Origin: a virus
DNA length: 64,000 bases
Virus record (IMG/VR): IMGVR_UViG_3300045988_120820
Span: 64,001-128,000 of that record
Reading direction: 5' to 3' (one strand)
The translations under genes were made by a program, and so were the position numbers. The notes under the pieces were generated by a model, which was not told the DNA's origin, made no database searches, and saw only the letters and a program-made list of their open reading frames with translations. Positions within the stretch are counted from its first letter, which is position 1, and every line of letters begins with the position of its first letter. Below are positions 24,520 to 58,150 of this stretch, in pieces.

Positions 24520-25568
24520 CAATATCTTCAATTAGGTTCGCTACTTCCTAATCAGTTCTCTTATGAACTTCTCTATGTTTCCATAGAAGTTGAGACTATA
24601 TCTTTACCTTTATTAAAGGCACATACCACTTCCACTCGCTTGAGTGTACGAGCATTTGCTCTAGTCGTTGAAGTTTACTTTTATTAATTGCTTAAATTAT
24701 ATTTTTTTGAAAATTCAATACTATTTTTTAATCTATTAGGTTTATATTTCATATCAAATTTATAATAAAATTCTTTTGGTATATATTTTAAATAAGGTCT
24801 GACTACATCAAAAAATTTTCTAAAATTTGTAGCGTTAAAATACAATCTATAATATGTTCTATTCTTATATCCTTTGATTCCAGATTTATCAGTATGTATT
24901 TTTAAATCTATATCAAACCTTCTCTTAAACATGTCTTTAATTCTTACATTATCTTTATAACTGAAGCCTTGAGTATTTAGATACCCAAATCTTTTAGCAT
25001 AATTATTTTTAAACGAAACATGCCAGTTTCCATCATCTAAAAACCAAAGTAATAAACCAAAAGAATTTATATTGTTTAAAACTGTGTCTGATAAATATTT
25101 TTTACCATTTAATAATGTATTCTTTTTAAATTCTTCTTTATTAGGAATTTTTATTCTAACATTAGAATAAATATAAATACCAAATGTTGTATTTTTTTCA
25201 TAATCATATTTAGAATGAGTGTCTATTCCTAAAGAACTAAACGTATATTCTAACCATTCAACATAAAATCTTTGTTTATTGGTATGGACACAACGAATAT
25301 ACTCTCCATTGATATCACCATCCCCTAACATCAATCCATATAAACTATTTATTATTTCTTTCTCATTTTTAATCATGTGAATACTCACTCCTTTTTTTAT
25401 TTTCGCAATTAACTTAAAGTCTTACCTGCTGATTGCCCAATCCTTAAACTTTTTAAAACCATCACGCTCATCATTACTGATTACGTTGTGGTATTAAGGC
25501 TCTAAGGGGTTTCCAGCAATTCAATATGTTTTCTAATAATAATTTCTTATTATAGGGGCTATTTATTA
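24520..25568 (-). mobile_element. group-I-like intron TMP-I4 (family A, 1049 nt) carrying a LAGLIDADG ORF
   Basis: The exon ends GGU with UAA immediately after. A P1-like pairing GGGU|UAAUAAAUA-GCCC is present. The core ACGACUAG..AUAUAGUCUC is P7-like. The insert ends ..AAGAUAUUG. It is homologous to 26451-26860 and 43379-43748. Confidence 0.75.
24684..25376 (-). CDS. LAGLIDADG homing endonuclease (intron-encoded)
   Basis: Two motifs, LYGLMLGDGDI and LLLWFLDDGNW. AAGGAGTG SD upstream. ATG at 25376 is preferred over the track's non-ATG start at 25388. Confidence 0.85.
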   Translation of the reverse strand: MIKNEKEIINSLYGLMLGDGDINGEYIRCVHTNKQRFYVEWLEYTFSSLGIDTHSKYDYEKNTTFGIYIYSNVRIKIPNKEEFKKNTLLNGKKYLSDTVLNNINSFGLLLWFLDDGNWHVSFKNNYAKRFGYLNTQGFSYKDNVRIKDMFKRRFDIDLKIHTDKSGIKGYKNRTYYRLYFNATNFRKFFDVVRPYLKYIPKEFYYKFDMKYKPNRLKNSIEFSKKYNLSN

Positions 25569-26450: not shown

Positions 26451-26860
26451 CGTTATCTTCACATAAATTCGCTACATTTACGCAGTTCTCTTATGAACTT
26501 CCTATACTTTCATATAGAGTCGAGACTATTTCTTCACCTTCAGCATTATCTGTTAAGGGCAAAGTATTTCCACTATCAATAGCTTATAGTGTACGGTTTC
26601 ACAACCTAGTCGTTGAAAGTTTAATCTAATTTATTAATTATTTTTTAAATCTTTTAAATGATTTTTAATTATATTAGATTAATACTTGCATGAACACCCA
26701 TTGTTTAAGATTACTTAGGATTTAACCATATAATCATCCTTACGTTTTTTCTACTTTCGTACCTTCACGTTTATTGTTACCAATTACGTTGTGGTGTAAG
26801 GCTTTAGGGATTACCTGCTTTTAACTTTGTGTCCTACGCACATTTCTGTACGTACGGAGA
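26451..26860 (-). mobile_element. group-I-like intron TMP-I3 (family A, ~410 nt, ORF-less); 5' junction uncertain (26861 or 26870)
   Basis: Shares UAGGACACAA, GCAGGUAAUCCC..ACACCACAACGUAAU, CAACGACUAG, AAAUAGUCUC and the ..AAGAUAACG 3' end with the capsid and I4 introns. Confidence 0.7.
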
Positions 26861-26977
26861 ATGTTGTTTCTCTTTCATTGAACTTCCGAAAGTGTCGCCA
26901 TTTTCGTACTCTTTCATAAATTTTTCTGCTTGACTCCAGTTACTCATTATTGCTGTGAAAACGTTCAGTTGGTTTTT
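26861..26977 (-). CDS. tape measure protein, exon 3 (mini-exon, ~36-39 aa)
   Basis: Hand translation KNQLNVFTAIMSNWSQAEKFMKEYENGDTFGSSMKE(KQH). This is the xxQxNxFxAxMxNW segment expected after AIAG in TP901-type TMPs. It is not in the ORF track. Confidence 0.7.
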
Positions 26978-28623: not shown

Positions 28624-30654
28624 ACCGTCTTTAGCACTTGTTTTCCAACCTGCCATATTTTGCATGATTGTTTTTAAACCATTACCTAATTTACTTGCAT
28701 TTTGTAATGGTTCTTGCCCTGCAATTATAATAGCAACCAACTCTTGCATACTAACACCTAATGTTTTCGCAACAGAAGATGAACGCATCATTGCTTCAGA
28801 TACGTCTTTACCTGTAACAGCATAGTTGTTGTTTGCATAGTTGACCATATCCATCATTTGCATCATTTTGGTAGTTTCTTTGGTGTTACCTTTGACTTTC
28901 ATTGTGACTTTATCTAATGAGTTTGCAACACCACCATAAGATGCTAATGTTGATTTCAAGTATTTATCTGCATCTGCTTGGCTTGTATCTATAACGTTGG
29001 CAAACATAGATGCATTTTTAGCATATTGTAAAGCTTTACTAACATTATGGAAACCAGATTGTAATGCCTCGGCAGTGGAATCAATTATATCAATACTACT
29101 TCTGGCAACCTCTTGACCTGCCTCACTTGCTTTTTGAGTTAACCAATCTAATTGCTTGGCTGTTCCTGTAAAGGTGTCTGGTGCAACTTTTAATAATTTT
29201 TTAATAGCCGTATCTGTATCAATAATAGTACTAGGAATTGAAGATATACCTTGAGTGATAAGTCTACCAATCATATTTGGTATTGAATACATTGATAACA
29301 TAGAGGCTAAATTACTGAAAAATCCAGACGTTTTCTTGGTTGCATTTCCTAATATATTCATTGCTTGAGTTGCACTTCTAGCACCATTAGCAACTCCGTT
29401 TATACCATTTCCGTTAATATTAGATAGACTACTAGAAAAAGTACTTACGTCTTTAGTCAGTGCTTTTAACTCTGCGTCTCTATCTTTTAAATTACTTATA
29501 CTAGCTATAGTTTGTAGTCTTTGTTTAAATTCTTCTACCTTAGATGATGAAGCTCCTAATTCTTGACATCTTCTTGTTAAGTTTGTTAAATCTTGAGATA
29601 CTTTATTAAAATCTGCATCAAATTTTACATTAGCTCTTTTAGTAGAAATTTCACTTTCAAATTGTTTATATTTATTTTCACATTGTGCTATTTTATCTTT
29701 TAAACCATCAAATTCAGCTTTAGCACCTTCTGTATTAGGGTCTATATTTCGTAATTTTGATTGATATTGTTCTATTTGAGTTATTAGTTCTTGTATTCCA
29801 GATGTATTAGCAAATTTACTCGTTCCTAATTCAGCAAGTTTAGCTTTAAGAGATTCTAACTTAGCAACAGATGTATTTATCTTATCGGTGAATGTAATTG
29901 AACCATTCAATCCTTTTAATGACACCGACACATTACTAATCTCTGCATTTAAATTATGTATTTGTTCATATGCCTTGTCAGATTTTAATATTTGACTTAA
30001 ATCAGCACCTTTAACATTATTGATTTTATTTTGAAGTTCTTGAAGTTGTCCCATCTGTGAACTTGTTAAGTTTTTATTTTTGAACATATTATTAATTTGT
30101 TCAGAGGTATTATTAGCCTTTTGTTGAATTTTATCAAATGAACTTATTAAATCTCTACTTATATCTATATTAGATTTATTTTTTAAGTTGTCCATTTTTT
30201 GTGCAGTAGATTGCATCTCACTGTTAATTTTTGATAACTTAGATTCTAACTCGTTATAAGCTTGAGTATTTATAGTTTTAGACATTTGTTTTTGAAGTGA
30301 TTCTGATTGTTTTTGTAAAACTTTATATTTAGCTATAGTATTATCTAATTCTTTATTACCTGTAGAAGTCTTAGTAGAACCACTGCCAAATAAATTTTTT
30401 TGCACGTCTTTACTTAAAGAATTTATTTCTTTTAAAGTGTTTTGTATTTGTTTAAGATTGTTTAATTGGTCATCTTTAAGTTTAAAGGCATTGTTTAGTA
30501 CTTTTTGAAGTTCTTCCATTTGAGCTTTCATTTTAGTAGTATCAAATTTTAGATTAACTTCTTTTTTCTCTAGCTTTTCCTTCAACTTAGCAACTTCTTG
30601 CTCTGCACCACTTCCATCTACAGAAGTTTTTAACCTAATAGTTAAATCTGCCAT
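28624..30654 (-). CDS. tape measure protein, exon 1 (N-terminal 677 aa)
   Basis: Coiled-coil N-terminus, then ..GVSMQELVAIIIAGQEPLQNASKLGNGLKTIMQNMAGWKTSAKDG, the start of the TP901-type TMP core. A stop follows one codon after the proposed GGU splice donor. Confidence 0.8.
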
Positions 30655-31119: not shown

Positions 31120-31576
31120 CTTTTTTCATTTCTTTTATTTCCTCTTCTAATTTCTCACATTGTTTATTTAATATTTCTAATTTTTCGGCTTCTAATAATA
31201 TTCTTTTACTTAAAGTTAACGAAGTCATATTTGCTAATAGGTTTTGTTTTTCTAACATGGCTTCTATAACAATTTCACTTACTATTTCATCTACATCTTG
31301 TGCAATAAACATTAATTCTTTTTTACCTTTATTTATTGATTCTATTAAATCTTCGTCTAATTCTAAATCCGTAGCTAATTCAAATGCTTCTTTATATATA
31401 AGTTCCATTAATGCTTTTTCTTCTAATCCTTGTTCTAGTCCTTTAGATATTTTTTCTTTTAATTCGTTTCTATTCTTACCAAATATATTATAAACTAAAA
31501 CAGTTTCTATTTCGTCATTTACTTCCACGTCATATGAACTTCTAATCATATCTAATGTTAAATCACTTAATTTCAT
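31112..31576 (-). CDS. tail assembly chaperone (gpG-like)
   Basis: 154 aa, acidic and helical, in the canonical position upstream of the TMP. An A6G run lies 8 nt before its stop. Confidence 0.6.
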   Translation of the reverse strand: MKLSDLTLDMIRSSYDVEVNDEIETVLVYNIFGKNRNELKEKISKGLEQGLEEKALMELIYKEAFELATDLELDEDLIESINKGKKELMFIAQDVDEIVSEIVIEAMLEKQNLLANMTSLTLSKRILLEAEKLEILNKQCEKLEEEIKEMKKGD

Positions 31577-31714
31577 TTCTTAATCTCCCTTCTTTATTAA
31601 TTATTTTAATACATCTTCTCCTATTTCACACATTATACAAATAGTAATTAGAGTTATAACACAACTGGCTTTGTGTACGATTATATTATATGATTATTTT
31701 AAATTTATATTCAC

Positions 31715-31735
31715 AATATTTTTAAATTGCGAACT
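31715..31735. repeat. 21-nt conserved intergenic motif, copy 1
   Basis: aatatttttaaattgcgaact is identical to 35624-35644. Confidence 0.85.
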
Positions 31736-31753
31736 TAATGGATATTAAACGAA

Positions 31754-31882
31754 CTATTCAACTATTAATTCTTCACATCCGCTTTCTATTAATATTTGTT
31801 TAACTTGCTCCTTTAACTTTGTAGGTACTTTTTTATAAGTTAATTTACCTTGTATTATTCTATAAGCTAAAAATTCAGCCAT
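31754..31882 (-). CDS. XkdX-like small phage protein (42 aa), below the ORF-track cutoff
   Basis: Hand translation MAEFLAYRIIQGKLTYKKVPTKLKEQVKQILIESGCEELIVE. GAAGGAGGTG SD upstream. This gene type normally closes a tail-fibre module. Confidence 0.55.
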   Translation of the reverse strand: MAEFLAYRIIQGKLTYKKVPTKLKEQVKQILIESGCEELIVE

Positions 31883-31883
31883 A

Positions 31884-32069
31884 TTATTCACCTCCTTCTA
31901 AAGTTAACATAATCAAATCTTGTATTGCCTGTGCTTGTCTTTCTTGTTCTTCTTGCATTAAATCAAGTTGAGATTTAGGCTGTTCAATTGTATTTTCCTG
32001 AAGTTCTTTAAAAAAAATCAATTCTTCTGTTGTCATTTCACGTATTATACCATTTTCATATATTTTCAT
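31884..32069 (-). CDS. hypothetical small protein (61 aa from MKIYENG)
   Basis: AGGTGG SD precedes the internal ATG at 32069. The track's longer start overlaps the upstream gene. Confidence 0.5.
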   Translation of the reverse strand: MKIYENGIIREMTTEELIFFKELQENTIEQPKSQLDLMQEEQERQAQAIQDLIMLTLEGGE

Positions 32070-32077
32070 TTTACCAC

Positions 32078-32725
32078 CTATCTTCCATAAACCCAAAATT
32101 CTAAATTATTAATAGCAGTATTAAAAACTAAAAATAATTTATCTACTTTTTTTACATTACAAGACCCAGGTTTCCAAACATTTGAAACCAAATCACTACC
32201 AAAGCTTACATTTAAAACATATGTGGATGCATTACCCATATATCTTGTAGCATGAACTGTATCAGCACCAATTGTTATATTATATCTTATATATTTTTCT
32301 CTTGTCGTATCACCAAAACTATTATCTGACATTAACATATCACTATTATCAGTCAAAGTACCCCTCAATAATTTAAATGTTTTCTTTTCACTTAATTTTG
32401 GTACTTTAAAAAATACCATAACTTCATTATATAAAAAAGAGTTGCCTTTATCATTTTGAGTTAATGACACAGTAGTTACATCTGCTGACAACACGTCATG
32501 TTTAACTAACTCCCAATCTTGTAATGTAAAACGATTATTTAAAACATTTAATTGAGAATTTATATTGGTTATATTTCCAGTTATATCAGTTATTTTATCA
32601 TTCATATTTGATATATTTTTTCTTAAATAATTTCCATCTTCACATAATACATTATTATCTGTACTAAAAAAAGATATATTTTTTTTTGATTGTTTATCTC
32701 TAAACATTTTTTTTAAAAAGTCCAT
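32078..32725 (-). CDS. fibre-type protein with conserved N-terminal anchor motif
   Basis: 215 aa. ISFFSTDNNVLCEDGNYLRKNISNMNDKI parallels ISFWSTDDNVLCKDSKTLRENLNNKADK of 10296-11642. Confidence 0.6.
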   Translation of the reverse strand: MDFLKKMFRDKQSKKNISFFSTDNNVLCEDGNYLRKNISNMNDKITDITGNITNINSQLNVLNNRFTLQDWELVKHDVLSADVTTVSLTQNDKGNSFLYNEVMVFFKVPKLSEKKTFKLLRGTLTDNSDMLMSDNSFGDTTREKYIRYNITIGADTVHATRYMGNASTYVLNVSFGSDLVSNVWKPGSCNVKKVDKLFLVFNTAINNLEFWVYGR

Positions 32726-43171: not shown

Positions 43172-43205
43172 AAATTAAATAAAGCACTACCAACAAAGTA
43201 GTGCT
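43172..43205 (-). terminator. intrinsic terminator after the major capsid gene
   Basis: AGCACTAC (43183-43190) pairs with GTAGTGCT (43198-43205); TTTATTTAATTT follows on the minus strand. Confidence 0.6.
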
Positions 43206-43229: not shown

Positions 43230-43378
43230 TTAGTTTTGTATTTTTATTATAGCGTAAGTAGAAGCTATAGCTACACCTAAATGTACCATACGGTTCATTT
43301 CCATTTCGATTTGATAATCTTTTCTAGCTCCAGTAGTATCTTCGTTTAATTCTACATCGCCTAATCTTCGCATAAGGT
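43230..43378 (-). CDS. major capsid protein, exon 2 (C-terminal 49 aa)
   Basis: Hand translation (Y)LMRRLGDVELNEDTTGARKDYQIEMEMNRMVHLGVAIASTYAIIKIQN. The frame is restored when joined after U at 43749. It is not in the ORF track. Confidence 0.7.
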
Positions 43379-43748
43379 CGTTATTCTTATACCGTTCTCT
43401 AAGGAACTGCTCATGCTTTCACATGAGAGGAGACTATTTCTTCACCCTATATTTATAGGGGCAACCCACTTCCACCCACTTGGGTGTACGAACTTGCGTT
43501 CTAGTCGTTGGAGTTTTTCCTCGTTATATTATAAATTTATTTATAACAGGGGAACTTACCTGCATGAACAGGGATTGTAATGAATTTAATCATTTAGTGT
43601 TTAGGATTTAACCATGCACCATCTCTACGTTTTTTCTACTTTCGTGCCGTTACGTTTTAGTTTTCACTATCCGCTTTGGTGTAGAGCTTTACCCATTACC
43701 TGCAATTCAAGTTGTGTCCTATACCGATTGCTCGATATACGAGGCGTT
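43379..43748 (-). mobile_element. group-I-like intron in the major capsid gene (family A, 370 nt, ORF-less)
   Basis: A P1-like GCUU|..GAGC pairing is present. It shares UAGGACACAA, GCAGGUAAUGGG, CAACGACUAG, AAAUAGUCUC and the ..AAGAAUAACG end with TMP-I3 and TMP-I4. Confidence 0.75.
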
Positions 43749-44640
43749 AAGCTACGTTTAGCTCGTTACCTTCATATCCTAATTTTACAATTGACTCACC
43801 GGCTGGTAGTAAAATTAAGTATTTATCTTCTATATCAAATTTACCTACTTCTTTATCATAATAGTTTGGTAATGGAACTAATGGAGTACCTTCAAACACT
43901 CTAGTATAACCATAATTCCTTCTATCATCTTTTTCTGCGTCAGATAAGAAAGTAGCATCAGTTTTTACATGAGCTAATGCTGATTTAGTACCTAATATTT
44001 GTACTTCTGCACCTGTATAGTCAGAAACTTTAGCTATCATTTCTCTTAATGTTTCTGCTAAAGCAGTATCTGGAGTAGCCTTGCATAAATTTGGATTTCC
44101 GGCAGTATCATAAGCCCCATATAAAGTTTTAGTTACTAAAGTACATATTTTTTTATCAAAAGATTTAGAAACTCTTTCTACGAATAATGTCCAATCTATA
44201 GCACCTTTTAAGAAATCGAACATTTCTGCATAGATTTTGATACCTAGTCTAAAACCTTTAGTATCAACTTTTCTATCAAAAATTCTTTGTCTATGAACAG
44301 TCTTGACACCAGTAGCCATTAAACTAACTTTAAATAATTCATCATTTTGTACTAAATATTCTTTTTTATCACCTAAGTCGAATGTTTCAACATCAACTAA
44401 ATCTCCATAAGATTCCATAGTTATTTCATTATGTGTTACTGTTATTAATTCTTCTAATAATTCAAATACAATAGTACCATTTCTATCTAACCATCTTTTA
44501 TATTTAGATTTCTTTTCTGGTAATGGTTCTACTTTTTCAAATATCATATTTCTGATTATATCAGATGCTTCTTTTTTAGAATAATTACATACTCCATTAT
44601 GTAAATCTACTATCATTTGTCTAACATCGTTATCTATCAT
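43749..44640 (-). CDS. major capsid protein, exon 1 (297 aa + 1 nt)
   Basis: Abundant-protein context: strong SD, a terminator after exon 2, and position after scaffold/decoration genes. The ORF ends ..LGYEGNELNVA with UAA spanning the splice donor. Confidence 0.7.
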
Positions 44641-46492: not shown

Positions 46493-46678
46493 TTAGAAAA
46501 ATAATTTATTAGAAAACATGAATTTTCTTTTATCTTCATTACTGAATTTAACTTTAGTACTATTAAGAAAAATATAAACAGTTTTATTGTCTATAATACC
46601 TTCAGATAAAAACACTAATCCTCGATTTAAAAGTTCATGTTTATCTTCTTCATTAAATGCATATATGAATTTATTCAT
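46493..46678 (-). CDS. hypothetical small protein
   Basis: 61 aa; overlaps the protease gene end by 8 nt. Confidence 0.5.
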   Translation of the reverse strand: MNKFIYAFNEEDKHELLNRGLVFLSEGIIDNKTVYIFLNSTKVKFSNEDKRKFMFSNKLFF

Positions 46679-47570
46679 AATGTATCACTCCATTACCTTG
46701 GAATCTAAAATCTAAATTTAAATCCCTACAATGTTTTATTAATTCAGCATATAACTCCATTTCACTAGGATTTCTACCTCTTTTAAATTTAAATTTTTGT
46801 TTTAATAAAGCTAAAAATCCCGCAACATGAGGTGATGCTTGACTTGTACCACTAGCAGTGGCAAATTTATTATTTAAATAACAACCCCTTATATTGTAAC
46901 CTGGAGCTACCAAATCTATTTCATCATTTGAATTAGAGAATTTTGTTATTTTATCATCTATACTTATTGCTCCTATTGCTATTGAATTATTTAAATATGC
47001 TGGGTAAGATATTTCATTAGTATTAAACTTACCATCTCCACTGTTACCACTACTAACACAACATAAGATATCATTATCTATTGCTAATTCAATTAATTTA
47101 TCTAATTCTTTATCATAAACATTTGTACCTAAACTCATATTAATTATATCTACTTTTTCTTCTATCATATATTTAATACCATTAGTTATACATTCCATAT
47201 CACCATTACCTTTTTTATTAAGTACTTTTCCAACTACTAATTTAGCATTAGGTGCTACACCATAAATGCCTAAATGTTCGCCGTCAGGTTTTGCACATAT
47301 TATAGAAGAAACATGAGTTCCATGCCCATTTAAATCCTCAAAATTATCAGAATTACCTTCGGAAGTGAAATTTTTCCCTTTTAAAATATTATCTTTTAAA
47401 CAATAATGAGAAGTACTTATTCCTGTGTCTAATACACCTATCACTATATCTTCTCCTTTATATCCTTCATTCCATAAATTTTCAGTTCCAATATGTTTAA
47501 TATTATCGGGAATTAAATCTGGAAGATTGTCGCTTATAGATTCTATTTTATAGTCTGCAATTTTAAACAT
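46671..47570 (-). CDS. subtilisin-family (S8) serine protease, intracellular-type (no signal peptide)
   Basis: Catalytic triad contexts VIGVLDTGI, HGTHVSS, GTSQASPHVAG, plus oxyanion SSGNSG. Its start overlaps the stop of endonuclease gene B (TAATG). Confidence 0.85.
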   Translation of the reverse strand: MFKIADYKIESISDNLPDLIPDNIKHIGTENLWNEGYKGEDIVIGVLDTGISTSHYCLKDNILKGKNFTSEGNSDNFEDLNGHGTHVSSIICAKPDGEHLGIYGVAPNAKLVVGKVLNKKGNGDMECITNGIKYMIEEKVDIINMSLGTNVYDKELDKLIELAIDNDILCCVSSGNSGDGKFNTNEISYPAYLNNSIAIGAISIDDKITKFSNSNDEIDLVAPGYNIRGCYLNNKFATASGTSQASPHVAGFLALLKQKFKFKRGRNPSEMELYAELIKHCRDLNLDFRFQGNGVIHYE

Positions 47571-48583
47571 TATATCACCTCCTTATTTATTTTATTTAAT
47601 TCTTTAATTAATATCTCTTCAATATTATCTATATCATAATACCAAATCTCTAATAATCTAATATTATTTTCTTTAGCATAATTTCTTTTTCTTTTATCGT
47701 GTTCAAGTTGTCTTTCAAAATCTTCCTTAGTTATCCAAGTTTTTTGCCATGATTCATGTTGCTCACCTTGACATTCTATAAGTAAGTTGTAATTTGGTAG
47801 ATAAAAATCATAAGATAAATTGCCGTTTCCTAATCCTAATAATCCTTCATATTTTATTTGTGTCTTATAGTCTATATTATATTTTTCTAATATATTCTTA
47901 GTTTTTATTTCTAATTGAGAAGAATTACATTCTCTACAAAACACACCTCTATCAACTTGATTTAAATTTGCTAAATTCCTTTCAAATTCACCACCACATT
48001 CTTGACATATAAATTTATACTTGTTACCACTTCTAGGGGTTACTTCAAATGGTGATTTTTTATTATTAGGAGACCAATATTTAGCCTTATCTGGATATAA
48101 ACTTCCAAAACTATCTTTTGGATGAATTTTTCCTACTTTTTTAGAACAATAAGGACATCTTTTTCCTTCTAAAAAATGAGCAGGAGTTGTAATATAATTG
48201 CCATGATAATATTTTTCATTACATATTAAAATAATCTTTTCGTGACTTCTACGAGTTATACAATAAGGATTTATACCTCTTTTTTCGTTTTCCTCAAAAT
48301 CCCAATAATCTTCTAATTTTTCATTTAATTCTTCTTCAATATAATATGCGAAACTATTATCGTAAGTATGACAACAACTAGAGCATTTACTTCCACGATT
48401 AAAATGATTAAATATAACGTCATATTCTCTTTTACAATAAGGACATTTAACTCTAATATATACATTATTATTTTTCTTATTTTTATCATCTATAGTCACT
48501 TCATTTTTATGATAACTTCCTATATAGACATAACCATCTCTACGATTTTCAACTTTTTCTTTGTGTTTTTCATTAAAATACAT
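47570..48583 (-). CDS. free-standing endonuclease-like protein B (paralogue of 14500-15729)
   Basis: 337 aa. Same N-terminus (MYFNEKHKEKVENRRDGYVYIGSYH), Zn-ribbon modules and C-terminus (LSYDFYLPNYNLLIECQGEQH..LLEIWYYDIDNIEEIL). Confidence 0.6.
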   Translation of the reverse strand: MYFNEKHKEKVENRRDGYVYIGSYHKNEVTIDDKNKKNNNVYIRVKCPYCKREYDVIFNHFNRGSKCSSCCHTYDNSFAYYIEEELNEKLEDYWDFEENEKRGINPYCITRRSHEKIILICNEKYYHGNYITTPAHFLEGKRCPYCSKKVGKIHPKDSFGSLYPDKAKYWSPNNKKSPFEVTPRSGNKYKFICQECGGEFERNLANLNQVDRGVFCRECNSSQLEIKTKNILEKYNIDYKTQIKYEGLLGLGNGNLSYDFYLPNYNLLIECQGEQHESWQKTWITKEDFERQLEHDKRKRNYAKENNIRLLEIWYYDIDNIEEILIKELNKINKEVI

Positions 48584-48611
48584 ATATATTCCTCCTCAAT
48601 ATTTTATTAAT

Positions 48612-48660
48612 TACTATATTATTGTATTAACATTTCTATATTATAAATCACCTATGATTT
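48612..48660 (-). promoter_or_regulatory. promoter/operator element, copy 5 (upstream of endonuclease gene B)
   Basis: Minus-sense AAATCATAGGTGATTT-N14-ATGTTAATAC matches the four elements at 58.15-60.02 kb. Confidence 0.5.
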
Positions 48661-48665
48661 ATTAA

Positions 48666-48842
48666 TTATTTTTTATTCCATTTATTTAATGCTAAGTCTA
48701 AATCTCTATTTCTCATAAATACCCAAAATGTTTTATGATTATTAGGATTTAAACCACAAACATAATATTTAAGTCCTTCATTTATTAAAAATTTCTTTTG
48801 TTTAGCGTCATAACATATATATAATGGATTTTTATAATTCAT
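48666..48842 (-). CDS. hypothetical small protein (58 aa), below the ORF-track cutoff
   Basis: Hand translation MNYKNPLYICYDAKQKKFLINEGLKYYVCGLNPNNHKTFWVFMRNRDLDLALNKWNKK. GGAGGAAG SD upstream. Confidence 0.5.
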   Translation of the reverse strand: MNYKNPLYICYDAKQKKFLINEGLKYYVCGLNPNNHKTFWVFMRNRDLDLALNKWNKK

Positions 48843-48859
48843 ATTTCTTCCTCCTTATT

Positions 48860-50338
48860 TTAATAATCTCCAGCATTATCCGCTTCTGGCGCTCTATTCG
48901 GGTCACCAGACTCCTCTGATGCACTCGGTCTACCACCTGTATTTTCAATATCTGCTCCCGACATTGTATGCGAATTAGCTAACGGACTCATAAGAGTTCC
49001 AAAATCTAATATACTTTCTATTTGAAGTATATTTAACGCTTCTAATGGTGAATATCCACATATTCCTAAATGTTCTAGCTTGCTTGTCCACGTTGTTAAT
49101 CTATTGCAACTAGATTGAATTTTTTCCTCTTTATTAAATTTGGTTGTATCACAGAAATATAATTGAAAATTTTTTAATGATGAATTTTTACTAAAAACAT
49201 AATTTAACCATATTTTGATTCTATCTAATAAATTCAATGGTACTAAACTATCTACAATTGTCCCATAGATTACAGATTGAGTGCTACTTCTATTATCTCC
49301 GTTAAATAAATTGCTATCTATACCTGCTGTATCATATACATTATTAGTTAAATTGTTTATTTCTTCATAATCAGAAACTTTATTGGTTTGTAATGAAACG
49401 GAATCTATTTTATAAGGAGAACTCACCACCCCTATTCCGTCTCTAACATTTCTAACTAATGCTCTATGATAAAACATTGCCGTTTCTGGCTCTATGCTTA
49501 ATTCACCATCATCATCTGTAGGTAGCAATTGATGAATTAATTTAAAGTTATTAGCTTCAATATTTTCCATACTAGCGTCAGCTAAATCTTTTATTCTACT
49601 TAAATCTAAAAGCAACCCAGAATAATATGGAATACCTTTACTTTCTATTACTTCTGGAAGAAAAGCTATTGCATTTTCAAGTGGTAATTTGTAATAGTTA
49701 TCTACGAAATTTTCATCATTCTTTAAATTACCTGCTTTATAATCGGCATATAAATTTTGAATATCTGTTGGGTAATATCCTAATTGTTTAGTATTAATAC
49801 CACTAAGTTTTATACTATAACCCAACATAAAAGATTCAGTATAAGTGACTTTACATAAATCTTCGGGTAAAGAAACAAATGTAATACTATCGCTTGTTTC
49901 CTGTTTATATAAATATATTTCTCCTTTTCTAAATTCACTTTCTAAAACCCAAGGACAAAAAGTTTTTAGATTATATTTTTCTAATTCTAAACACGCTTTT
50001 CTATAAGATTTAAAAAAGTTATCCTGTCCTTTAGTTATAAATTTACTAGCATCTAATGGAACTAAATAATGGTCGTAAGTTAACAAATTCGATTTATAAT
50101 TTATTATTTCTTTTAAATTACCATTAATTACTCTCATAAGTTCGGCTTGCTGTTGTAGTGTAGAAACATTAGAATAAGGATTTTCTAAAGCACTAGCTAT
50201 AGTGTCAGTATCCACCTTGCTTCTTTTCCTATTACTAGATATTTTGTCTATGTTACTTATATCAACCATCGAAGCTTGTTGTGCAAAACTTAAATTTTTC
50301 TTTTTATTATCTTTCTCTTCGCTCAAACATCTCACCAC
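48860..50338 (-). CDS. portal protein
   Basis: 492 aa immediately downstream of the large terminase, with an acidic C-terminal tail. The call rests on position and size. Confidence 0.65.
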   Translation of the reverse strand: MVRCLSEEKDNKKKNLSFAQQASMVDISNIDKISSNRKRSKVDTDTIASALENPYSNVSTLQQQAELMRVINGNLKEIINYKSNLLTYDHYLVPLDASKFITKGQDNFFKSYRKACLELEKYNLKTFCPWVLESEFRKGEIYLYKQETSDSITFVSLPEDLCKVTYTESFMLGYSIKLSGINTKQLGYYPTDIQNLYADYKAGNLKNDENFVDNYYKLPLENAIAFLPEVIESKGIPYYSGLLLDLSRIKDLADASMENIEANNFKLIHQLLPTDDDGELSIEPETAMFYHRALVRNVRDGIGVVSSPYKIDSVSLQTNKVSDYEEINNLTNNVYDTAGIDSNLFNGDNRSSTQSVIYGTIVDSLVPLNLLDRIKIWLNYVFSKNSSLKNFQLYFCDTTKFNKEEKIQSSCNRLTTWTSKLEHLGICGYSPLEALNILQIESILDFGTLMSPLANSHTMSGADIENTGGRPSASEESGDPNRAPEADNAGDY

Positions 50339-50341
50339 CTT

Positions 50342-51616
50342 TTAATTAGCTAAGAAAATATGTCTTTTTCTCTTGTTTCTATTTTTCTTTCTTATATCTT
50401 TTTCTATTAATTCAGCTAAATAATTACCATAAGTAATAGAAGAATATCTATCTTTACGATTTCTTCCTTTTTCTTTAAGAACTATATCACCATTTCCCAT
50501 AGTTTCATAATCTAAGTTTATTGATTCAAATATAAAATTAGATGTTTGAATAAATGGTGCTATTTTATTAGCATGGTATTCAGCGTCTTGATGATATTTT
50601 AAGTCTTTACTAAAGTCTCCTCTTTTTTCATTTTCTTCTATTAATAATCTTATTTTTTTACTACCAAAAGCATTTTTAAGATATACTGCACAATCATTAT
50701 TTATTTTTTGATTCCCTTTAATTACATATATACAATTTATACCATTTTTTAAAGGTTGAAAATCTTTTGATTGTGTACTCATATCATAAATGCCAAAAGG
50801 TTCGTAATGTTCATCAATATTTTCGTCATAAGATGATTTTTCCATCTCTTGTATTACTGCTATACCTAAACCACCACCATCTATAATGATTTTATCAGCT
50901 TTAAATTCTGTATATAATCTCTTAATTCTAGTGGCTTGTTTTTCAAATTTCATACCATTATGTGATTCCATATAAACAACTTCTCTAATAATATTATTTC
51001 CACTAGGAAGTAATCTCCATAAAGTAAAAATAGAGTTATCATTTTTATTTGATTTGTTAGCTTTTGCTGTGGCTACATCGACCGAAATTATTCTTATTTC
51101 GTCTTTCTTTTTAGGCATTTGTCTTAATTTCTTTTTCTTCTCTTCCGGATTTCTATAGTCGTCATCTGTTAATGGATAATAACAATTCTTTAAAACTCTA
51201 GCATTTAACATATCAGATGTATTAAAGAAGCAATCACCACTTTGTCCATGCCATATAGCACCATATTCCATATTAAATACAAATTCGCCCATGTCCTCTT
51301 TATCTTCTTCAATCTTATCTTTTAATACAAGTTTATGGTCTAAAGAAGCTAAATAAGGAATAGCACATGCAAATGATTTTCCACCCTCAAACATTCTATT
51401 TAGTATAGTCATAAACTTTTCATAACTCCAATGAACTTTCATCCATGCAGAACTTAGATATATCTCCATATTAGCTTCTAATGGATAATCTGCATATTCG
51501 GGTTTTTCTAAAAATGGAGGTTTTCTTGGATTTGTTAAGAATTGTTTTAAAACTGAATTTATTATATCTAATTTGATAAGCCTAAATTCGTCTGCAACCA
51601 ATACGTTACCTCTCAA
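50342..51616 (-). CDS. terL: terminase large subunit, exon 2 (Walker B + nuclease domain)
   Basis: Begins LRGNVLVADEFRLI (Walker B-like); ISVDVATAK and IIDGGGLG are nuclease-domain-like. It has no start codon of its own (TTG in frame after the intron's terminal G). Confidence 0.75.
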   Translation of the reverse strand: MRGNVLVADEFRLIKLDIINSVLKQFLTNPRKPPFLEKPEYADYPLEANMEIYLSSAWMKVHWSYEKFMTILNRMFEGGKSFACAIPYLASLDHKLVLKDKIEEDKEDMGEFVFNMEYGAIWHGQSGDCFFNTSDMLNARVLKNCYYPLTDDDYRNPEEKKKKLRQMPKKKDEIRIISVDVATAKANKSNKNDNSIFTLWRLLPSGNNIIREVVYMESHNGMKFEKQATRIKRLYTEFKADKIIIDGGGLGIAVIQEMEKSSYDENIDEHYEPFGIYDMSTQSKDFQPLKNGINCIYVIKGNQKINNDCAVYLKNAFGSKKIRLLIEENEKRGDFSKDLKYHQDAEYHANKIAPFIQTSNFIFESINLDYETMGNGDIVLKEKGRNRKDRYSSITYGNYLAELIEKDIRKKNRNKRKRHIFLAN

Positions 51617-51968
51617 CGATTTGTTATCCTATAGGCTTTTTATCCCATAGTTCTTACATTTTACCATCATGTAAGTCCAGCATACATTTTCACCTTCAGC
51701 ATTATCTGTTAAGGGGAGGAGGCTCGTGAGAAAATTATTGCTCTCATATTATCGCTCATTTCTTATGCGTTACAAACAGTATTAGATATTACTGCTCTCG
51801 GTATTGTCCCTTGTGAATTGGAGGATTCTCTTTTAATTTTATACAAATTCAAAATGAAGATTTCCTGTGCTTTTTCTTCTCTTAATATAAAATTATTATT
51901 CATTTTATGAACCGATACACCCCTCTAATTATCTAAAAAATTTCTCTTTTAGACGGCTATACTTTTTA
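51617..51968 (-). mobile_element. group-I-like intron in terL (family B, 352 nt, ORF-less)
   Basis: The exon ends GGU followed by UAA, and the insert ends GAUAACAAAUCG. Long blocks are shared with TMP-I2 (27000-27275). Confidence 0.75.
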
Positions 51969-53467: not shown

Positions 53468-54607
53468 TTATTCAACTTTCATTACGTAACTTGCAACTAC
53501 TCCATCTTCATCAAGTATTAATAATGTTTGAGAAGGTTTGTTATATAATTTTTTCTTCATAGCATAATCATCTGTTGAAATTAAACTACCATTTATATAT
53601 ATATTTGTATTATATTGTGAAAACATTTTAGGTTGATGATAATGTCCTAATAAAATTAAATCTATGTTTTCACCACCTATAACCATAGATAATTCTTCAC
53701 TTACTTTATTTAAATTAACTTGGTCGCCATGACATGAAACAACTGTATTTCCTTTTACATTCATTACAGATAGTTCACCATTATTTATCGAATCTAAAAA
53801 TACAACATTAGATAAATTTGATGTTCTCATTTTAATCATTTCATTTAATAACATAGAATAATTGTTACTATTACTTCTATCATCTTTCATCATTTCTACT
53901 GCTTCATGGTTACCATTGTTTTGAGTTACAGTTAAATAAAAATAATTTGATAATTTTTCTATTACCTGTGATATTATTTCACTAACACTTACTATTTGTT
54001 TTACCAAAGATTCTTGATTAGATAATTTAATACTATTATGTAATTCACCAGATATTAAATCTCCGTTCAATACTAAATGTAATTTATCTATGTTATTATC
54101 AATACAATGTTCTATTGTTTTATTAATTATTTTATCTAACCTTTTTATAGCTATATCTTTATTATATTTATTTATTGAATTTTCTACAGTCATAGAAATA
54201 TGTAAATCGCTTAATATCAAAATTCCGTCTTTCCCACTAGAATCTTCTTTTGGAACATAGCGATTCAACAATGGATTTCTTGAATTTAAATTATTAATTT
54301 CTTCACTTATTAAATTCATTACATTTTCCATCCTAGATAACCCTCTTAATTGTCTATTCACTTCTGTCCTTAAATCAGTTAACTTTATTTTTTCCTTTTT
54401 TATTTCAGCTAATGTTTTGCTATCTACATCATTTTCATCTATAGTTTCAGAATATAATTTAAATCCATATGCTAATTTTCTTAAATGGTCGTCTGAATAA
54501 TCTGTTTCATATTTTCTATTTATATCTTCCCATGACATATCATTTAATTTATTAAGTTTATTTAAACAATCCTGTATTAATCCCTTTTTATTCATAATTC
54601 CCTCCAA
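53468..54607 (-). CDS. calcineurin-like metallophosphoesterase with ~125-aa N-terminal helical domain
   Basis: Motifs LILSDLH, LNGDL, NNGNHE, SCHGD, LLGHYH, in canonical order. Confidence 0.7.
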   Translation of the reverse strand: MEGIMNKKGLIQDCLNKLNKLNDMSWEDINRKYETDYSDDHLRKLAYGFKLYSETIDENDVDSKTLAEIKKEKIKLTDLRTEVNRQLRGLSRMENVMNLISEEINNLNSRNPLLNRYVPKEDSSGKDGILILSDLHISMTVENSINKYNKDIAIKRLDKIINKTIEHCIDNNIDKLHLVLNGDLISGELHNSIKLSNQESLVKQIVSVSEIISQVIEKLSNYFYLTVTQNNGNHEAVEMMKDDRSNSNNYSMLLNEMIKMRTSNLSNVVFLDSINNGELSVMNVKGNTVVSCHGDQVNLNKVSEELSMVIGGENIDLILLGHYHQPKMFSQYNTNIYINGSLISTDDYAMKKKLYNKPSQTLLILDEDGVVASYVMKVE

Positions 54608-54611
54608 ATAA

Positions 54612-54645
54612 ACAAAAAAATAATTGGGAGGTTTTTATGCCTCCC
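54612..54645 (-). terminator. intrinsic terminator
   Basis: GGGAGG (54626-54631) pairs with CCTCCC (54640-54645); AATTATTTTTTTG follows on the minus strand. Confidence 0.6.
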
Positions 54646-54653
54646 TTATTTAA

Positions 54654-54845
54654 TTATCTTTCATTTACATTCTCTATCTTAATTTTAACTTTATCTTCTC
54701 CAATAAAATTATTAAATAAATCTTCCAAAGAAAAAGTTTCTAAACTATAACCATCTTTATCTAATTCTTCAACAACAATGCCGTTATCAGTTTCTTTAAC
54801 CTTTGATATTTTTATTTCTAATGTTTTTCCTTCTTTAAAAATCAT
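54654..54845 (-). CDS. hypothetical small protein
   Basis: 63-aa ORF with SD. Confidence 0.55.
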   Translation of the reverse strand: MIFKEGKTLEIKISKVKETDNGIVVEELDKDGYSLETFSLEDLFNNFIGEDKVKIKIENVNER

Positions 54846-54863
54846 ATAATCATTCTCCCTTTA

Positions 54864-55145
54864 TTAATTATTATGAATTAATTGTTCAAGTATATATTCT
54901 AATGACGATTTTATCTCTTCAAAATTATAAGAACGACATATGTCTGTTTTAAATATTCTACCACGTACACCTGTAGGATACATTCTATAAGCCAATACAC
55001 TCTTATCATTTACCATATATGTTATTATTCTATTACAATCATAACATACCATTTCATATGTTAATGTATCATTATTTAATTTAAATCCCAACTCTTTTAA
55101 TTTATTGTCTATATCTTCATTGAAAATATAATATTTATTAAACAT
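54864..55145 (-). CDS. hypothetical protein
   Basis: 93-aa ORF with GGGAGGAG SD. Confidence 0.55.
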   Translation of the reverse strand: MFNKYYIFNEDIDNKLKELGFKLNNDTLTYEMVCYDCNRIITYMVNDKSVLAYRMYPTGVRGRIFKTDICRSYNFEEIKSSLEYILEQLIHNN

Positions 55146-55167
55146 TAAATTCTCCTCCCTTTATTAA

Positions 55168-55473
55168 TTATTCACCTTGTATTCTTTTAGCAACAGACTT
55201 TTTAAGTCTAACCTTAACAACTTCTTTATCTTCAGTTTTAAAAGGTGTTTCTTTTCCTTCTTTAGTTTTCATCACACCTTCTCTACCTTTTTTAACTTTC
55301 TTATCTACTAAGAACATTCCTAGAGAAACAGATTCATCAACATCTATTTGTTCATATACAGAAGCTACAACATCTTCTAATGCTTTTAACACCTCTCTAG
55401 CTTCTGCCTGTGATACTTTTAGACCTCTTTCTTCTAAAGCTCCTTGTAGTTCTTTTATTACGTTTATTTCCAT
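55168..55473 (-). CDS. HU/IHF-like histone-like DNA-binding protein
   Basis: 101 aa. ELQGALEERGLKVSQAEAREVLKALEDVVAS..VSLGMF..KGREG..KTKEGKETPF is colinear with the HU fold (helix-turn-helix, then a beta-arm with R-x-G). Confidence 0.55.
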   Translation of the reverse strand: MEINVIKELQGALEERGLKVSQAEAREVLKALEDVVASVYEQIDVDESVSLGMFLVDKKVKKGREGVMKTKEGKETPFKTEDKEVVKVRLKKSVAKRIQGE

Positions 55474-56817: not shown

Positions 56818-57597
56818 TTAATCGTCTATTTCAATTATATAATTGTATAACGCATTATATAATTTTTGTGGTATTTGATTTCTATAATAATCAGCTACCA
56901 CCTTAATATTTTTCTCTTTATAATACTTGTAAACTTGAAATGCCTTTTCTTGACTATTATAATAACCTAGATGTTCTTTTTTTGATTCGCCTGTTCCCAT
57001 ATTAATCATACGACAATGTACTTGATATTTACCGTTTTCAAGAGGACTTGTCCCTATAACTGAATCACCTCTTGATTTATCACATTTAACAAATAAAATA
57101 TTAATTTTTTCTGGTACAAACATACAAGCTTCTGGACTATACATCTTGTTTTTCTTAACCAATATATCCTTGTCGAGACATATTCTCTCTCCTTTAATTT
57201 CATAATAGTTATCATAATACCACTTTGCAAAATTTTGAAAATTATGCCATTCATCACATACAATACAACCTTTATAAGTCGGATATTTTTCTTGATATTT
57301 TTCATCATAACATCTTCTTAACATATCGTGCCATATTTGATAACATTTGGTAATTTTACCATTTTCTTTTGTTTTATATTTTCCTTCGCCTAAATAACCT
57401 ATTCGAAATATACTTTTGTCATATGGTGATTTTATTTTACCTTTTTTAAAATCACCATATTGTGCTCCTTTAGTAGTATAATCATGTTTCGGAAAATATA
57501 CATCTATATTATGACACCCTCTGTATTCAATAATAATCATCTCATTACCAAAATTATTAATATTTTTCTCTCCTATCCTATCAATTTTCTTCGCCAT
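56818..57597 (-). CDS. AP2-domain-like DNA-binding protein (homing-endonuclease-associated type)
   Basis: 259 aa. YQIWHDMLRRCYDEKYQEKYPTYKGCIVCDEWHNFQNFAKW and KEHLGYYNSQEKAFQVYK resemble phage AP2/HNH-associated proteins. No nuclease motif was seen. Confidence 0.4.
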   Translation of the reverse strand: MAKKIDRIGEKNINNFGNEMIIIEYRGCHNIDVYFPKHDYTTKGAQYGDFKKGKIKSPYDKSIFRIGYLGEGKYKTKENGKITKCYQIWHDMLRRCYDEKYQEKYPTYKGCIVCDEWHNFQNFAKWYYDNYYEIKGERICLDKDILVKKNKMYSPEACMFVPEKINILFVKCDKSRGDSVIGTSPLENGKYQVHCRMINMGTGESKKEHLGYYNSQEKAFQVYKYYKEKNIKVVADYYRNQIPQKLYNALYNYIIEIDD

Positions 57598-57625
57598 ATT
57601 CTCTATCTCCCTTTATTAATTATTT

Positions 57626-57784
57626 TTACTTCGCATAATTATTTATTTCATCAATTTTATATTCTATCCTTTCTAGTGAGAAAAACAATCTTTGTATACA
57701 TTCCTTACTCTTGCCTTTTTTAATTGCTTGTTTAATTTTCTCCTCTATTTTTATACTCCTGTCAATATTGGCTACTCTATTCAC
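57626..57784 (-). CDS. possible small ORF (52 aa, GTG start)
   Basis: Hand translation (M)NRVANIDRSIKIEEKIKQAIKKGKSKECIQRLFFSLERIEYKIDEINNYAK. It fills the gap between two genes. The start overlaps the upstream stop (GTGATATGAAGTGA). Confidence 0.35.
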   Translation of the reverse strand: MNRVANIDRSIKIEEKIKQAIKKGKSKECIQRLFFSLERIEYKIDEINNYAK

Positions 57785-57785
57785 T

Positions 57786-58049: not shown

Positions 58050-58150
58050 TTTTAAGCAATCCTATCTCTTTATTGAATAACTAATCCTATTTTCAATTAA
58101 AAGTTTTTAGAAAAGCTCTCATTAGATATTTTAGCTATATCTTGTTTAAC

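What the first reader, a model, noticed from the sequence alone, without database searches (positions are those of the whole stretch)
43230..44640. Major capsid gene interrupted by a 370-nt ORF-less group-I-like intron 49 codons before its end
The 297-aa ORF ends ..LGYEGNELNVA with UAA. A second open frame at 43230-43378 encodes ..LMRRLGDVELNEDTTGARKDYQIEMEMNRMVHLGVAIASTYAIIKIQN and is followed by a strong terminator. Splicing after U at 43749 (GCUU|, P1-like pairing with GAGC 15 nt downstream) to the nucleotide after G at 43379 restores the frame through a UAC (Tyr) codon. This gives a 346-aa capsid protein. The insert shares its core with TMP-I3 and TMP-I4.
Basis: partly seen in the sequence, partly recalled or inferred. 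Interest (0 to 1): 0.7.

Follow-up and report, generated by a model that had tools for sequence, protein, structure and literature searches.

The report
Group I intron splitting phage capsid gene

Summary
Confirmed: the minus-strand gene at 43230-44640 is an HK97-fold major capsid gene split by an ORF-less group I (subgroup IA-like) intron and followed by a terminator. The intron shares its core with two tape-measure-gene introns in the window.

Not confirmed: the 370-nt length, both splice sites, the GCUU/GAGC "P1" and the 346-aa product.
Its 3' site lies in the P9.2 loop.

Intron-less alleles, including one 97% identical, place the intron at 43768-43360 (409 nt, or one base downstream). The product is ...KLGYEG|DVELNEDTTG..., 333 aa.

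A 17-helix model is 98% paired across 12 copies. Of its 87 pairs, 45 show compensatory changes.

The unexpected point: a 3'-terminal G and a U at the end of exon 1 cannot both hold while keeping the frame. Family comparison favours a G-C pair at the 5' splice site. This is inferred and needs cDNA.

Overall it is a new member of a known kind.

The parts
43769..44640 (-). Capsid gene exon 1: ATG at 44640, codons 1-290 plus the first two bases (GG) of Gly291.
   Evidence: ORF listing. DNA colinearity with the intron-less allele L001 ends at ..GGATATGAAGGT. Intron-less alleles L009-L012 and L054 agree. The end is uncertain by one base (43769 or 43768).
43360..43768 (-). ORF-less group I intron, 409 nt (UAACGAGC ... 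GAAGAUUAGG).
   Evidence: Rfam RF00028 at 48.7 bits, E 2.7e-11. Boundaries come from intron-less alleles and sister copies. The structure is 98% paired with 45 of 87 pairs compensatory.
43230..43359 (-). Capsid gene exon 2: third base of Gly291 (C43359), codons 292-333 (DVELNEDTTG...KIQN) and the TAA stop at 43232-43230.
   Evidence: PHROG 4088 profile positions 291-332. Alignment to 17 homologues. DNA match to L001 begins at AGGCGATGTAG.
43742..43771 (-). P1: exon A43771-G43770-G43769 plus intron U43768 pair with the guide sequence G43745-C43744-C43743-U43742. The stretch also encloses P1a (43764-43760 with 43753-43749).
   Evidence: The minimum-energy fold reproduces P1, P1a and P2, z -3.1. 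L008 carries a compensatory change, exon GAA>GAG with guide GCCU>GCCC. Pair counts for helices 1 and 2 are.
43747..43749 (-). In-frame TAA, inside the intron, that ends the 297-aa product of unspliced RNA.
43720..43739 (-). P2 hairpin UAUAUCGA-GCAA-UCGGUAUA with a GNRA loop.
   Evidence: (5 of 8 pairs with changes on both sides).
43432..43714 (-). Catalytic core.
- P3: 43714-08 with 43468-62
- P4: 43704-699 with 43567-61
- P5: 43694-92 with 43573-71
- P5a: 43686-81 with 43628-23
- P6, P6a, P6b: 43560-43510
- P7: 43506-02 with 43436-32
- P7.1: 43501-498 with 43493-90
- P7.2: 43486-82 with 43477-73
- P8: 43460-55 with 43450-45

P3 and P7 form the pseudoknot.
   Evidence: Coordinates, covariation per helix, Rfam alignment of the core.
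43360..43427 (-). It ends with the 10-nt tail GAAGAUUAGG, whose last base is the terminal G43360.
   Evidence: The same 10-nt tail ending in G occurs in sibling and sister copies.
43183..43205 (-). Terminator-like hairpin plus T-run after the capsid gene.
26451..26869 (-).
   Evidence: Junction against intron-less alleles L039, L043, L045-48 and L052.
24520..25568 (-). It carries a LAGLIDADG ORF (24684..25388) and has canonical U|...G| junctions.
   Evidence: Intron-less alleles L048 and L050.

Best explanation
The window comes from a roughly 133-kb phage of a gut Firmicute, related to phiCD211 and SPbeta. Its HK97-fold major capsid gene is interrupted, inside the Gly291 codon, by a 409-nt group I intron (43768-43360, minus strand).

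The intron has subgroup-IA architecture: P1 to P9.2 with P7.1 and P7.2 and a P3/P7 pseudoknot.

This copy has lost the nuclease ORF. Sister copies in related phages carry that ORF in the P6b loop, so this is a decayed or streamlined descendant of a mobile homing intron.

Unspliced RNA would give a truncated 297-aa protein that ends at a TAA inside the intron. Splicing joins ..GAA GG to C GAU GUA.. and yields a 333-aa capsid protein, ..KLGYEG-DVELNEDTTGARKDYQIEMEMNRMVHLGVAIASTYAIIKIQN, colinear with intron-less homologues.

Shown here: the split gene, the boundaries to within one base, the RNA secondary structure, and the relationship to the two tape-measure introns and to a copy at a second capsid site.

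Inferred: the RNA self-splices by the usual two-step guanosine mechanism. The terminal G is G43360. The 5' cleavage therefore follows G43769, which is paired with C43744, rather than following a U of a U·G pair.
For: Split gene:
- The two pieces match PHROG 4088 colinearly.
- There are 17 uninterrupted homologues of 324-339 aa.
- The intron-less allele L001 aligns up to GGATATGAAGGT and resumes at GATGT.
- L054, 97% identical over the part of the protein that matched (residues 1-280) and without an intron at this site, encodes YEGDVELN.

Intron identity:
- Rfam RF00028 matches at E 2.7e-11.
- The 3' domain is 73-75% identical to group I introns of phages r1t, c-st/D-1873 (annotated 'Group I catalytic intron') and Enterococcus phages, whose recA is split.
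- In the 17-helix model, 98.0% of cells pair and 45 of 87 pairs change on both sides. The covariation score is 0.357, against 0.127 when shuffled (0 of 500 shuffles reach it) and 0.04-0.06 when the partners are slid.

Boundaries:
- The same intron is present in ten IMG/VR contigs. The divergent clade among them has a stop codon upstream of CGATGT.
- The 10-nt tail after P9.2 ends in an invariant G in all copies: site A, site B, S1 and S2.
- Where exons vary, P1 stays paired.

Capsid identity: an AlphaFold model of the intron-less homologue gives only HK97-fold capsid and encapsulin hits, probability 1.0.

ORF loss: long copies carry a 237-368-aa ORF in the P6b loop.
Against: - The Rfam score (48.7) is just below the curated threshold of 50. 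The match appears only when a short region is scanned.
- No RNA or protein data exist, so splicing is inferred.
- The frame-preserving junction with a terminal G leaves a G, not the near-universal U, at the end of exon 1. Published work on the Tetrahymena and Anabaena ribozymes reports that U·G is required, or at least a pyrimidine at -1 (PMC1891724, PMC12355055).
- I derived the structure model from these same sequences, so the slid control is biased in its favour.
Confidence: 0.88

Rival explanations
1. One reading: a 370-nt intron spliced from U43749 to the base after G43379, giving a 346-aa protein with ..NELNVA-Y-LMRRLGDVEL..
For: In this window alone the frame is open across that junction and both sites obey the U/G rule. 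GCUU can pair with GAGC on paper.
Against: - It adds 13 residues absent from all 17 intron-less homologues.
- In L013-L017 and L023 the same frame has a stop codon downstream of that 3' site.
- G43379 lies in the P9.2 loop, and GAGC lies in the P2 stem and loop. Both helices have compensatory support.
- Intron sequence conserved with other phage introns continues to 43364.
Confidence: 0.02
2. Same intron, shifted one base: 43767-43359. Exon 1 ends in the canonical U43768, paired with G43745, but the intron's last base is C43359 instead of G. The protein is identical, and the mRNA reads GGU GAU instead of GGC GAU.
For: U43768·G43745 is a textbook wobble pair in P1. The intron-less alleles read GGT GAT. 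The one-base ambiguity cannot be resolved from the DNA of L017, where the base is T on both sides.
Against: - The supposed terminal base varies (C in most copies, U in L017), as expected for a synonymous third codon position and not for the guanosine-site ligand.
- The same shift applied to the sister copies gives terminal U (site B, S1) or A (S2). It also destroys the fully canonical junctions of S1 and of site B in L018-22.
- Every copy has a G exactly 10 nt after P9.2.
Confidence: 0.1
3. Canonical U and G sites that are not colinear with homologues, for example CGAGCU|(43761) joined to the base after G43360. This would give ..EGNEL-DVEL.. with three extra residues.
For: It satisfies both the U(-1) and terminal-G rules and keeps the frame. 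In the window CGAG can pair with CUCG of the guide.
Against: - That pairing has a C×C mismatch next to the splice site. It is further broken in L014 (CAAGCU) and L008 (CAAGUU with guide GCCCCG). The AGGU/GCCU pairing is instead strengthened in L008.
- The extra residues are absent from all homologues.
- The bases concerned form the P1a hairpin, whose changes preserve pairing.
Confidence: 0.03
4. The insert is a decayed intron that no longer splices. The capsid protein is the truncated 297-aa product, or exon 2 is translated separately.
For: The copy has lost its endonuclease ORF. The 5' splice-site pair is non-canonical. The Rfam score is sub-threshold.
Against: - All core helices are intact and the variation is compensatory.
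- The same intron sits in this essential gene in ten IMG/VR phage contigs, most of 125-140 kb (L006-8, L013-17, L023), and in one short metagenomic contig (L002).
- The 42 C-terminal residues are conserved in all homologues.
- No ribosome-binding site precedes the ATG at 43373.
Confidence: 0.03

Closest known systems
Subgroup IA group I introns of phages of low-GC Gram-positive bacteria (Lactococcus phage r1t between ORF41 and ORF42; recA intron of Enterococcus phages of genus Kochikohdavirus; Clostridium phage c-st / D-1873)
   Same: - They are 72-75% identical over P7.1-P9.2, including GUACACCCAAGUGGGUGGAAGUG, AUAGUC, GUUCAUAAGAGAAC and the short tail ending in G.
- The D-1873 copy is annotated 'Group I catalytic intron'.
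- The recA intron of Enterococcus phage phiEF17H has the same P1-loop-guide-P2 layout and canonical GGGU|..AUAG| junctions.
   Different: - They sit in different host genes.
- The 5' half (P1-P6) is not alignable by BLAST.
- The capsid copy's frame-preserving junction has G-C instead of U·G at the 5' splice site.
Group I introns in phage capsid and tail genes (Lactococcus phage Tuc2009 capsid gene; mycobacteriophage LittleE capsid and BAKA tail genes; Lactobacillus phage JCL1032 late genes)
   Same: An essential late structural gene is interrupted. Related genomes hold versions with and without a homing endonuclease. Related introns occur in both capsid and tail genes (PMC3706429, read; JCL1032 as cited in PMC6669764).
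   Different: No sequence relationship was tested. Those introns were shown to splice by RT-PCR and have U at the exon 1 end and G at the intron end (PMC3706429). Splicing here is untested.
T4 td / nrdB / sunY and Twort orf142 introns (from my own knowledge, not tested here)
   Same: Subgroup IA hallmarks (P7.1/P7.2, P9.1/P9.2), an optional ORF in a peripheral loop, and several introns in one gene (Twort orf142).
   Different: This is a resemblance of architecture only. No alignment or model comparison was run against them.
Large phiCD211 / phiCDIF1296T-type Clostridioides difficile phages and SPbeta (genome context)
   Same: The capsid homologue is 38-42% identical in 113-134-kb Clostridioides phages. 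The precomputed Pfam family is PF27364 (YonB, named after an SPbeta protein).
   Different: Those capsid genes appear uninterrupted in the hits listed. The window's phage is known only from metagenomes (IMG/VR contigs and an uncultured Firmicutes MAG).

Membership tests
Group I intron (Rfam RF00028) | Covariance-model score at or above the curated gathering score | tested here: inconclusive
   48.7 bits against a gathering score of 50, E 2.7e-11, full-length model match 1-253. No hit in whole-window scans because of the speed filters.
Group I intron (Rfam RF00028) | Conserved core helices P3-P8 with the P3/P7 pseudoknot, supported by covariation | tested here: met
   17 helices, 98% of cells paired, 45 of 87 pairs with changes on both sides, 0 of 500 shuffles reach the observed values. 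P7 is invariant and P3 has 4 compensatory pairs.
Group I intron (Rfam RF00028) | 3'-terminal guanosine (omega G) | tested here: met
   G43360, 10 nt after P9.2. The aligned position is G in all 12 copies, at four insertion sites.
Group I intron (Rfam RF00028) | Last base of the 5' exon is U, in a U·G wobble pair with the internal guide sequence | tested here: inconclusive
   A U·G pair exists (U43768·G43745). However, the only junction that keeps both the frame and a terminal G cuts 5' of that U, leaving G43769 paired with C43744. Sibling S2 has the same G-C arrangement. Site B has U·G (L018-22) or C-G (L054). The actual cleavage site needs cDNA.
Group I intron (Rfam RF00028) | Removal restores a reading frame colinear with uninterrupted homologues | tested here: met
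   The spliced product is 333 aa, the same as P0002 and L009-12. The junction YEG|DVEL matches the intron-less alleles, including the 97%-identical L054.
Group I intron (Rfam RF00028) | Guanosine-dependent self-splicing | not testable with these tools
   No RNA data. An in vitro transcript assay or RT-PCR is needed.
Subgroup IA | Extra hairpins P7.1 and P7.2 between P7 and the 3' strand of P3 | tested here: met
   P7.1 is GAAC-GCAA-GUUC, with all 4 pairs compensatory. P7.2 is CACCC-AAGU-GGGUG, with 2 of 5 pairs compensatory. Assigning these hairpins to subgroup IA rests on my own knowledge of the Michel-Westhof classification.
Mobile (homing) group I intron | Endonuclease ORF in a peripheral loop, and presence/absence polymorphism among close relatives | tested here: not met
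   The window copy has no ORF. Sister copies carry a 237-368-aa ORF in the P6b loop, and intron-plus and intron-minus alleles coexist. This copy is therefore a non-autonomous derivative.
HK97-fold major capsid protein | HK97 fold and position in the head-morphogenesis module | tested here: met
   The model of homologue P0002 (pLDDT 74, pTM 0.71) gives top PDB hits that are all HK97-type capsid proteins or encapsulins, probability 1.0. The gene lies downstream of a subtilase-type protease ORF. The window protein itself could not be modelled as a spliced sequence.

The most novel reading that the evidence does not exclude
This intron family splices without the near-universal U·G wobble at the 5' splice site. 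The pair at the cleavage position would be G-C in the capsid copy and in tape-measure sibling S2, C-G in one site-B copy, and U·G in the others. The cleavage position would then be set by its distance from P2 rather than by a wobble pair.

That tolerance would let an endonuclease-driven ribozyme colonise sites not preceded by U. It would help explain how the same ribozyme sits at two positions 14 codons apart in one capsid gene, and how sibling introns with the same core occupy two sites in the tape-measure gene.
Probability: 0.55. Interest if true: 0.6.

Novelty: new member of a known kind. Interest (0 to 1): 0.42.

Why it matters
Annotation: without the intron the capsid gene is called as a truncated 297-aa protein, as in the public cluster P0001, and the conserved 42-residue C-terminus is lost.

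Biology: the locus and its relatives form a compact natural series:
- intron-less alleles;
- ORF-containing and ORF-less copies of the intron;
- one ribozyme at two nearby sites in one gene;
- sibling copies in the tape-measure gene.

This series can be used to study intron mobility and endonuclease loss in gut phages.

If the inferred G-C splice-site pair is real, it is a natural exception to a rule used to design group I ribozymes, for example for trans-splicing or RNA circularisation. It can be tested with a single RT-PCR.

Tried and rejected
- Whole-window Rfam scans in both modes found nothing, as did a scan of the tape-measure region 24300-28800. Only a 700-nt scan recovered the intron, so absence in large scans is a filter effect.
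- Local Pfam-A gave no family for the capsid pieces. A profile search of PDB sequences gave nothing. The fold had to be obtained from a model.
- I enumerated every combination of a U-ending exon 1 and a G-ending intron that keeps the frame. In the divergent clade, the stop codon rules out every 3' site upstream of it. The remaining canonical combinations add 3, 5 or 6 residues and either lack a P1 or conflict with P2. I rejected them.
- I considered a terminal G at 43358 (GGCG|AU), which would leave exon 1 ending in A43767 and give Asn292. I rejected it because A43767 is unpaired and the tail is 10 nt in the sister copies.
- The genome-contig scan gave one MAG contig only, so no host could be named beyond 'uncultured Firmicutes'.
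- Two literature searches for natural exceptions to the U·G rule found nothing usable.
- No covariance model was built from A4, because its 468 columns exceed the 400-column limit.
- The phage r1t intron junctions were not resolved.

Full report
OBSERVATION

On the minus strand, a 297-aa ORF (44640-43747) ends ..KLGYEGNELNVA-TAA. A second open frame (43378-43230) ends ..AIIKIQN-TAA. A terminator-like hairpin follows at 43205-43183. These parts of the finding are correct.

Between the two frames, Rfam's group I intron model matches 43785-43410 end to end. The score is 48.7 bits, E 2.7e-11, against a gathering score of 50. The same match is dropped by the speed filters when the whole window is scanned.

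The two protein pieces hit one PHROG family (4088) colinearly. The 297-aa ORF covers profile positions 6-293 and the downstream frame covers 291-332. The gene is therefore split, and the insert is a group I intron.

WHAT THE GENE IS

A search of the large protein collection found 19 relatives. Seventeen are uninterrupted proteins of 324-339 aa. One is a 96%-identical 297-aa truncation, meaning the same intron miscalled in a public assembly.

An AlphaFold model of the closest uninterrupted homologue (P0002, 78% identity, pLDDT 74) matches only HK97-fold capsid proteins and encapsulins in the PDB, at probability 1.0.

The nearest cultured relatives are large Clostridioides difficile phages of the phiCD211 type, at 38-42% identity. 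IMG/VR holds contigs, most of them 125-140 kb, that are up to 98% identical. One uncultured Firmicutes gut MAG contig also carries the gene.

They all read ..YEG[DSEG]-V/L...
- Six IMG/VR phages of a clade about 80% identical carry the same intron at the same site.
- G43379 lies in the loop of hairpin P9.2.
- The proposed guide 'GAGC' (43733-43730) straddles the stem and the GCAA loop of hairpin P2. Both hairpins show compensatory changes.

WHERE THE INTRON REALLY IS

Intron-less alleles read GGA TAT GAA GGT GAT GTT GAA... (L009-L012). So does L054, which is 97% identical over the part that matched and has no intron at this site. It reads ...GAA GGT GAT GTG GAG CTG AAC, that is YEGDVELN.

Intron-containing alleles read ..GAAGG-TAAC(A/G)AGCT.. 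at the 5' side. At the 3' side they read ..GAAGAT(T/A)A(G/T)G-(C/T)GATGT...

The element is therefore 43768-43360 (UAAC...G, 409 nt) or, shifted by one base, 43767-43359. Either way the protein is ..KLGYEG-DVELNEDTTG.., 333 aa, the same length as the homologues.

RNA STRUCTURE

I aligned 12 copies:
- seven at this capsid site ('site A'), from two clades;
- two copies of the same ribozyme at a second capsid site ('site B');
- the tape-measure siblings S1 and S2, plus a divergent S2.

Endonuclease ORFs were trimmed out of their loop before alignment. I then drew the helices on the window copy.

The counting tool gave these results:
- 98.0% of 1000 cells form standard pairs.
- 45 of 87 pairs change on both sides.
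- The covariation score is 0.357, against 0.127 for shuffles (0 of 500 reach it) and 0.04-0.06 when the partners are slid.

P3 and P7 cross, which is the group I pseudoknot. P7.1 and P7.2 lie between P7 and the 3' strand of P3. By my knowledge of the Michel-Westhof scheme, this marks subgroup IA. P2 has a GNRA loop. P9, P9.1 and P9.2 are followed by a 10-nt tail.

A plain energy fold of 43774-43718 returns P1 (AGGU/GCCU), P1a and P2 exactly, with z -3.1.

One caveat applies. The structure was derived from these same sequences, so the slid control is biased in its favour. The count of compensatory pairs is the stronger evidence.

THE GUIDE SEQUENCE

P1 pairs exon A43771-G43770-G43769 and intron U43768 with G43745-C43744-C43743-U43742.

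- In L008 the exon codon GAA is GAG and the guide GCCU is GCCC, a compensatory A-U to G-C change.
- At site B, intron-bearing alleles have CCG where intron-less ones have CCA. This creates a G-C pair in the same register.
- In sibling S2, intron-bearing alleles all have GAG, whereas five of six intron-less alleles have GAA.

The register, in which exon positions -1, -2 and -3 pair with guide positions 5, 4 and 3 bases before P2, is therefore supported at three sites.

THE UNRESOLVED POINT

A U at the end of exon 1 (U43768) and a G at the end of the intron cannot both hold while keeping the frame.

If the intron ends at the invariant G43360, exon 1 must end at G43769, which is paired with C43744. 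The mRNA then reads GGC GAU.

If exon 1 ends at U43768, the intron ends in C43359. That base is U in L017, so it varies as a synonymous third codon position would.

The sister copies bear on this choice:
- S1 is fully canonical (GGGU|UAAU...AUUG|UAUGAU) against intron-less alleles L048 and L050.
- Site B in L018-22 is fully canonical (CCGGU|UAAC...AAAG|UGGAG).
- Site B in L054 has C at -1, paired with G.
- S2 has G at -1, paired with C (AAAGAG|AAAC...AACG|AAUGC). No register of S2 gives both a U and a terminal G.

With the terminal G fixed 10 nt after P9.2, every copy has at most one departure from the rules. The one-base-shifted register would give non-G terminal bases in all copies and would break the two canonical ones.

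I therefore favour G43769|U43768 as the 5' junction. That would be a natural G-C pair where published work on the Tetrahymena and Anabaena ribozymes reports that U·G is required, or at least that a pyrimidine is needed at -1 (PMC1891724; PMC12355055).

This is inference from comparative sequence only. In this phage, a cDNA would distinguish GGC from GGT.

ORIGIN AND MOBILITY

Copies in L008, L013-15, L017 and L023 (site A) and in L018-22 and L054 (site B) are 1.2-1.6 kb long. They carry a 237-368-aa ORF in the P6b loop, with zinc-ribbon repeats and a C-terminal nuclease-like domain.

The window copy, like those in L006, L007 and L016, lacks this ORF. It is therefore a non-autonomous derivative.

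Site A and site B copies are about 96% identical over positions 28-235, which run from the guide sequence through P6a. They differ in the P1/P1a segment upstream of the guide. This indicates movement of one ribozyme between two sites 14 codons apart. The direction of movement was not determined.

COMPARISON WITH WHAT IS KNOWN

Group I introns in phage late structural genes, including capsid genes, are documented for Tuc2009 and for mycobacteriophages LittleE and BAKA (PMC3706429) and for JCL1032 (as cited in PMC6669764). Multiple introns in one phage gene are also known. The kind of feature is therefore not new.

What is specific here is the corrected anatomy, the family relationships, and the apparently non-canonical 5' splice-site pair.

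VERDICT

The finding is real, and its interpretation is right in outline but wrong in its coordinates and its product. It is a new member of a known kind and of moderate interest. It would be of higher interest if the G-C splice-site pair is confirmed.

Noticed in passing
L018-L022 (about 3840-5426) and L054 (about 3350-4896); equivalent window position about 43810: Some related phages carry the same ribozyme, about 96% identical over P2-P6a, at a second site in the capsid gene. It lies 14 codons upstream (P-V/A|G-E-S) and has a different P1/P1a segment and an endonuclease ORF. One ribozyme therefore occupies two nearby sites in one gene in different genomes.
   Followed up: partly
window 26451-26869 (-): The tape-measure sibling intron S2 is ORF-less and 419 nt long. 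Against six intron-less alleles, its 5' exon ends in G (..AUGAAAGAG|) and is paired with UUCUC in a wobble-free P1. It shows the same anomaly as the capsid intron.
   Followed up: partly
window 24520-25568 (-) and 27276-28082 (-): The tape-measure gene is broken into several ORFs. One intron (S1) carries a LAGLIDADG ORF at 24684-25388. A second LAGLIDADG-like ORF at 27276-28082 lies in a further insert, upstream of S2, that I did not characterise.
   Followed up: partly
window 47570-48583 (-): A free-standing nuclease ORF (zinc-ribbon repeats, PHROG 'HNH/homing endonuclease') lies just upstream of the subtilase-type protease ORF. Its C-terminal 139 aa are 34% identical (E 8e-11) to the ORF that long copies of the capsid intron carry in related phages.
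   Followed up: partly
window 46671-47570 (-): The head-module protease is a subtilase (Peptidase_S8, E 3e-54). By my own knowledge, this differs from the protease families usually found in phage head modules.
   Followed up: no
L001 6553-7529: In an intron-less relative, an IS605 OrfB/TnpB-type gene (Cas12f-like TNB domain) lies a few genes downstream of the capsid gene.
   Followed up: no
window 31576-32078, 48583-48860, 51616-51966, 54607-55168, 57597-58626: There are other ORF-free gaps of 0.3-1 kb between minus-strand genes. BLAST with the capsid intron found no further copies of this family. Other intron types were not excluded, because the whole-window Rfam scans demonstrably miss even the capsid intron.
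   Followed up: no
P0001 / L002 (Logan SRR29133674 contig): In at least one metagenome assembly the public protein collection holds the 297-aa truncated capsid product as a called gene (cluster of 106 member sequences). The intron is therefore causing systematic mis-annotation.
   Followed up: partly
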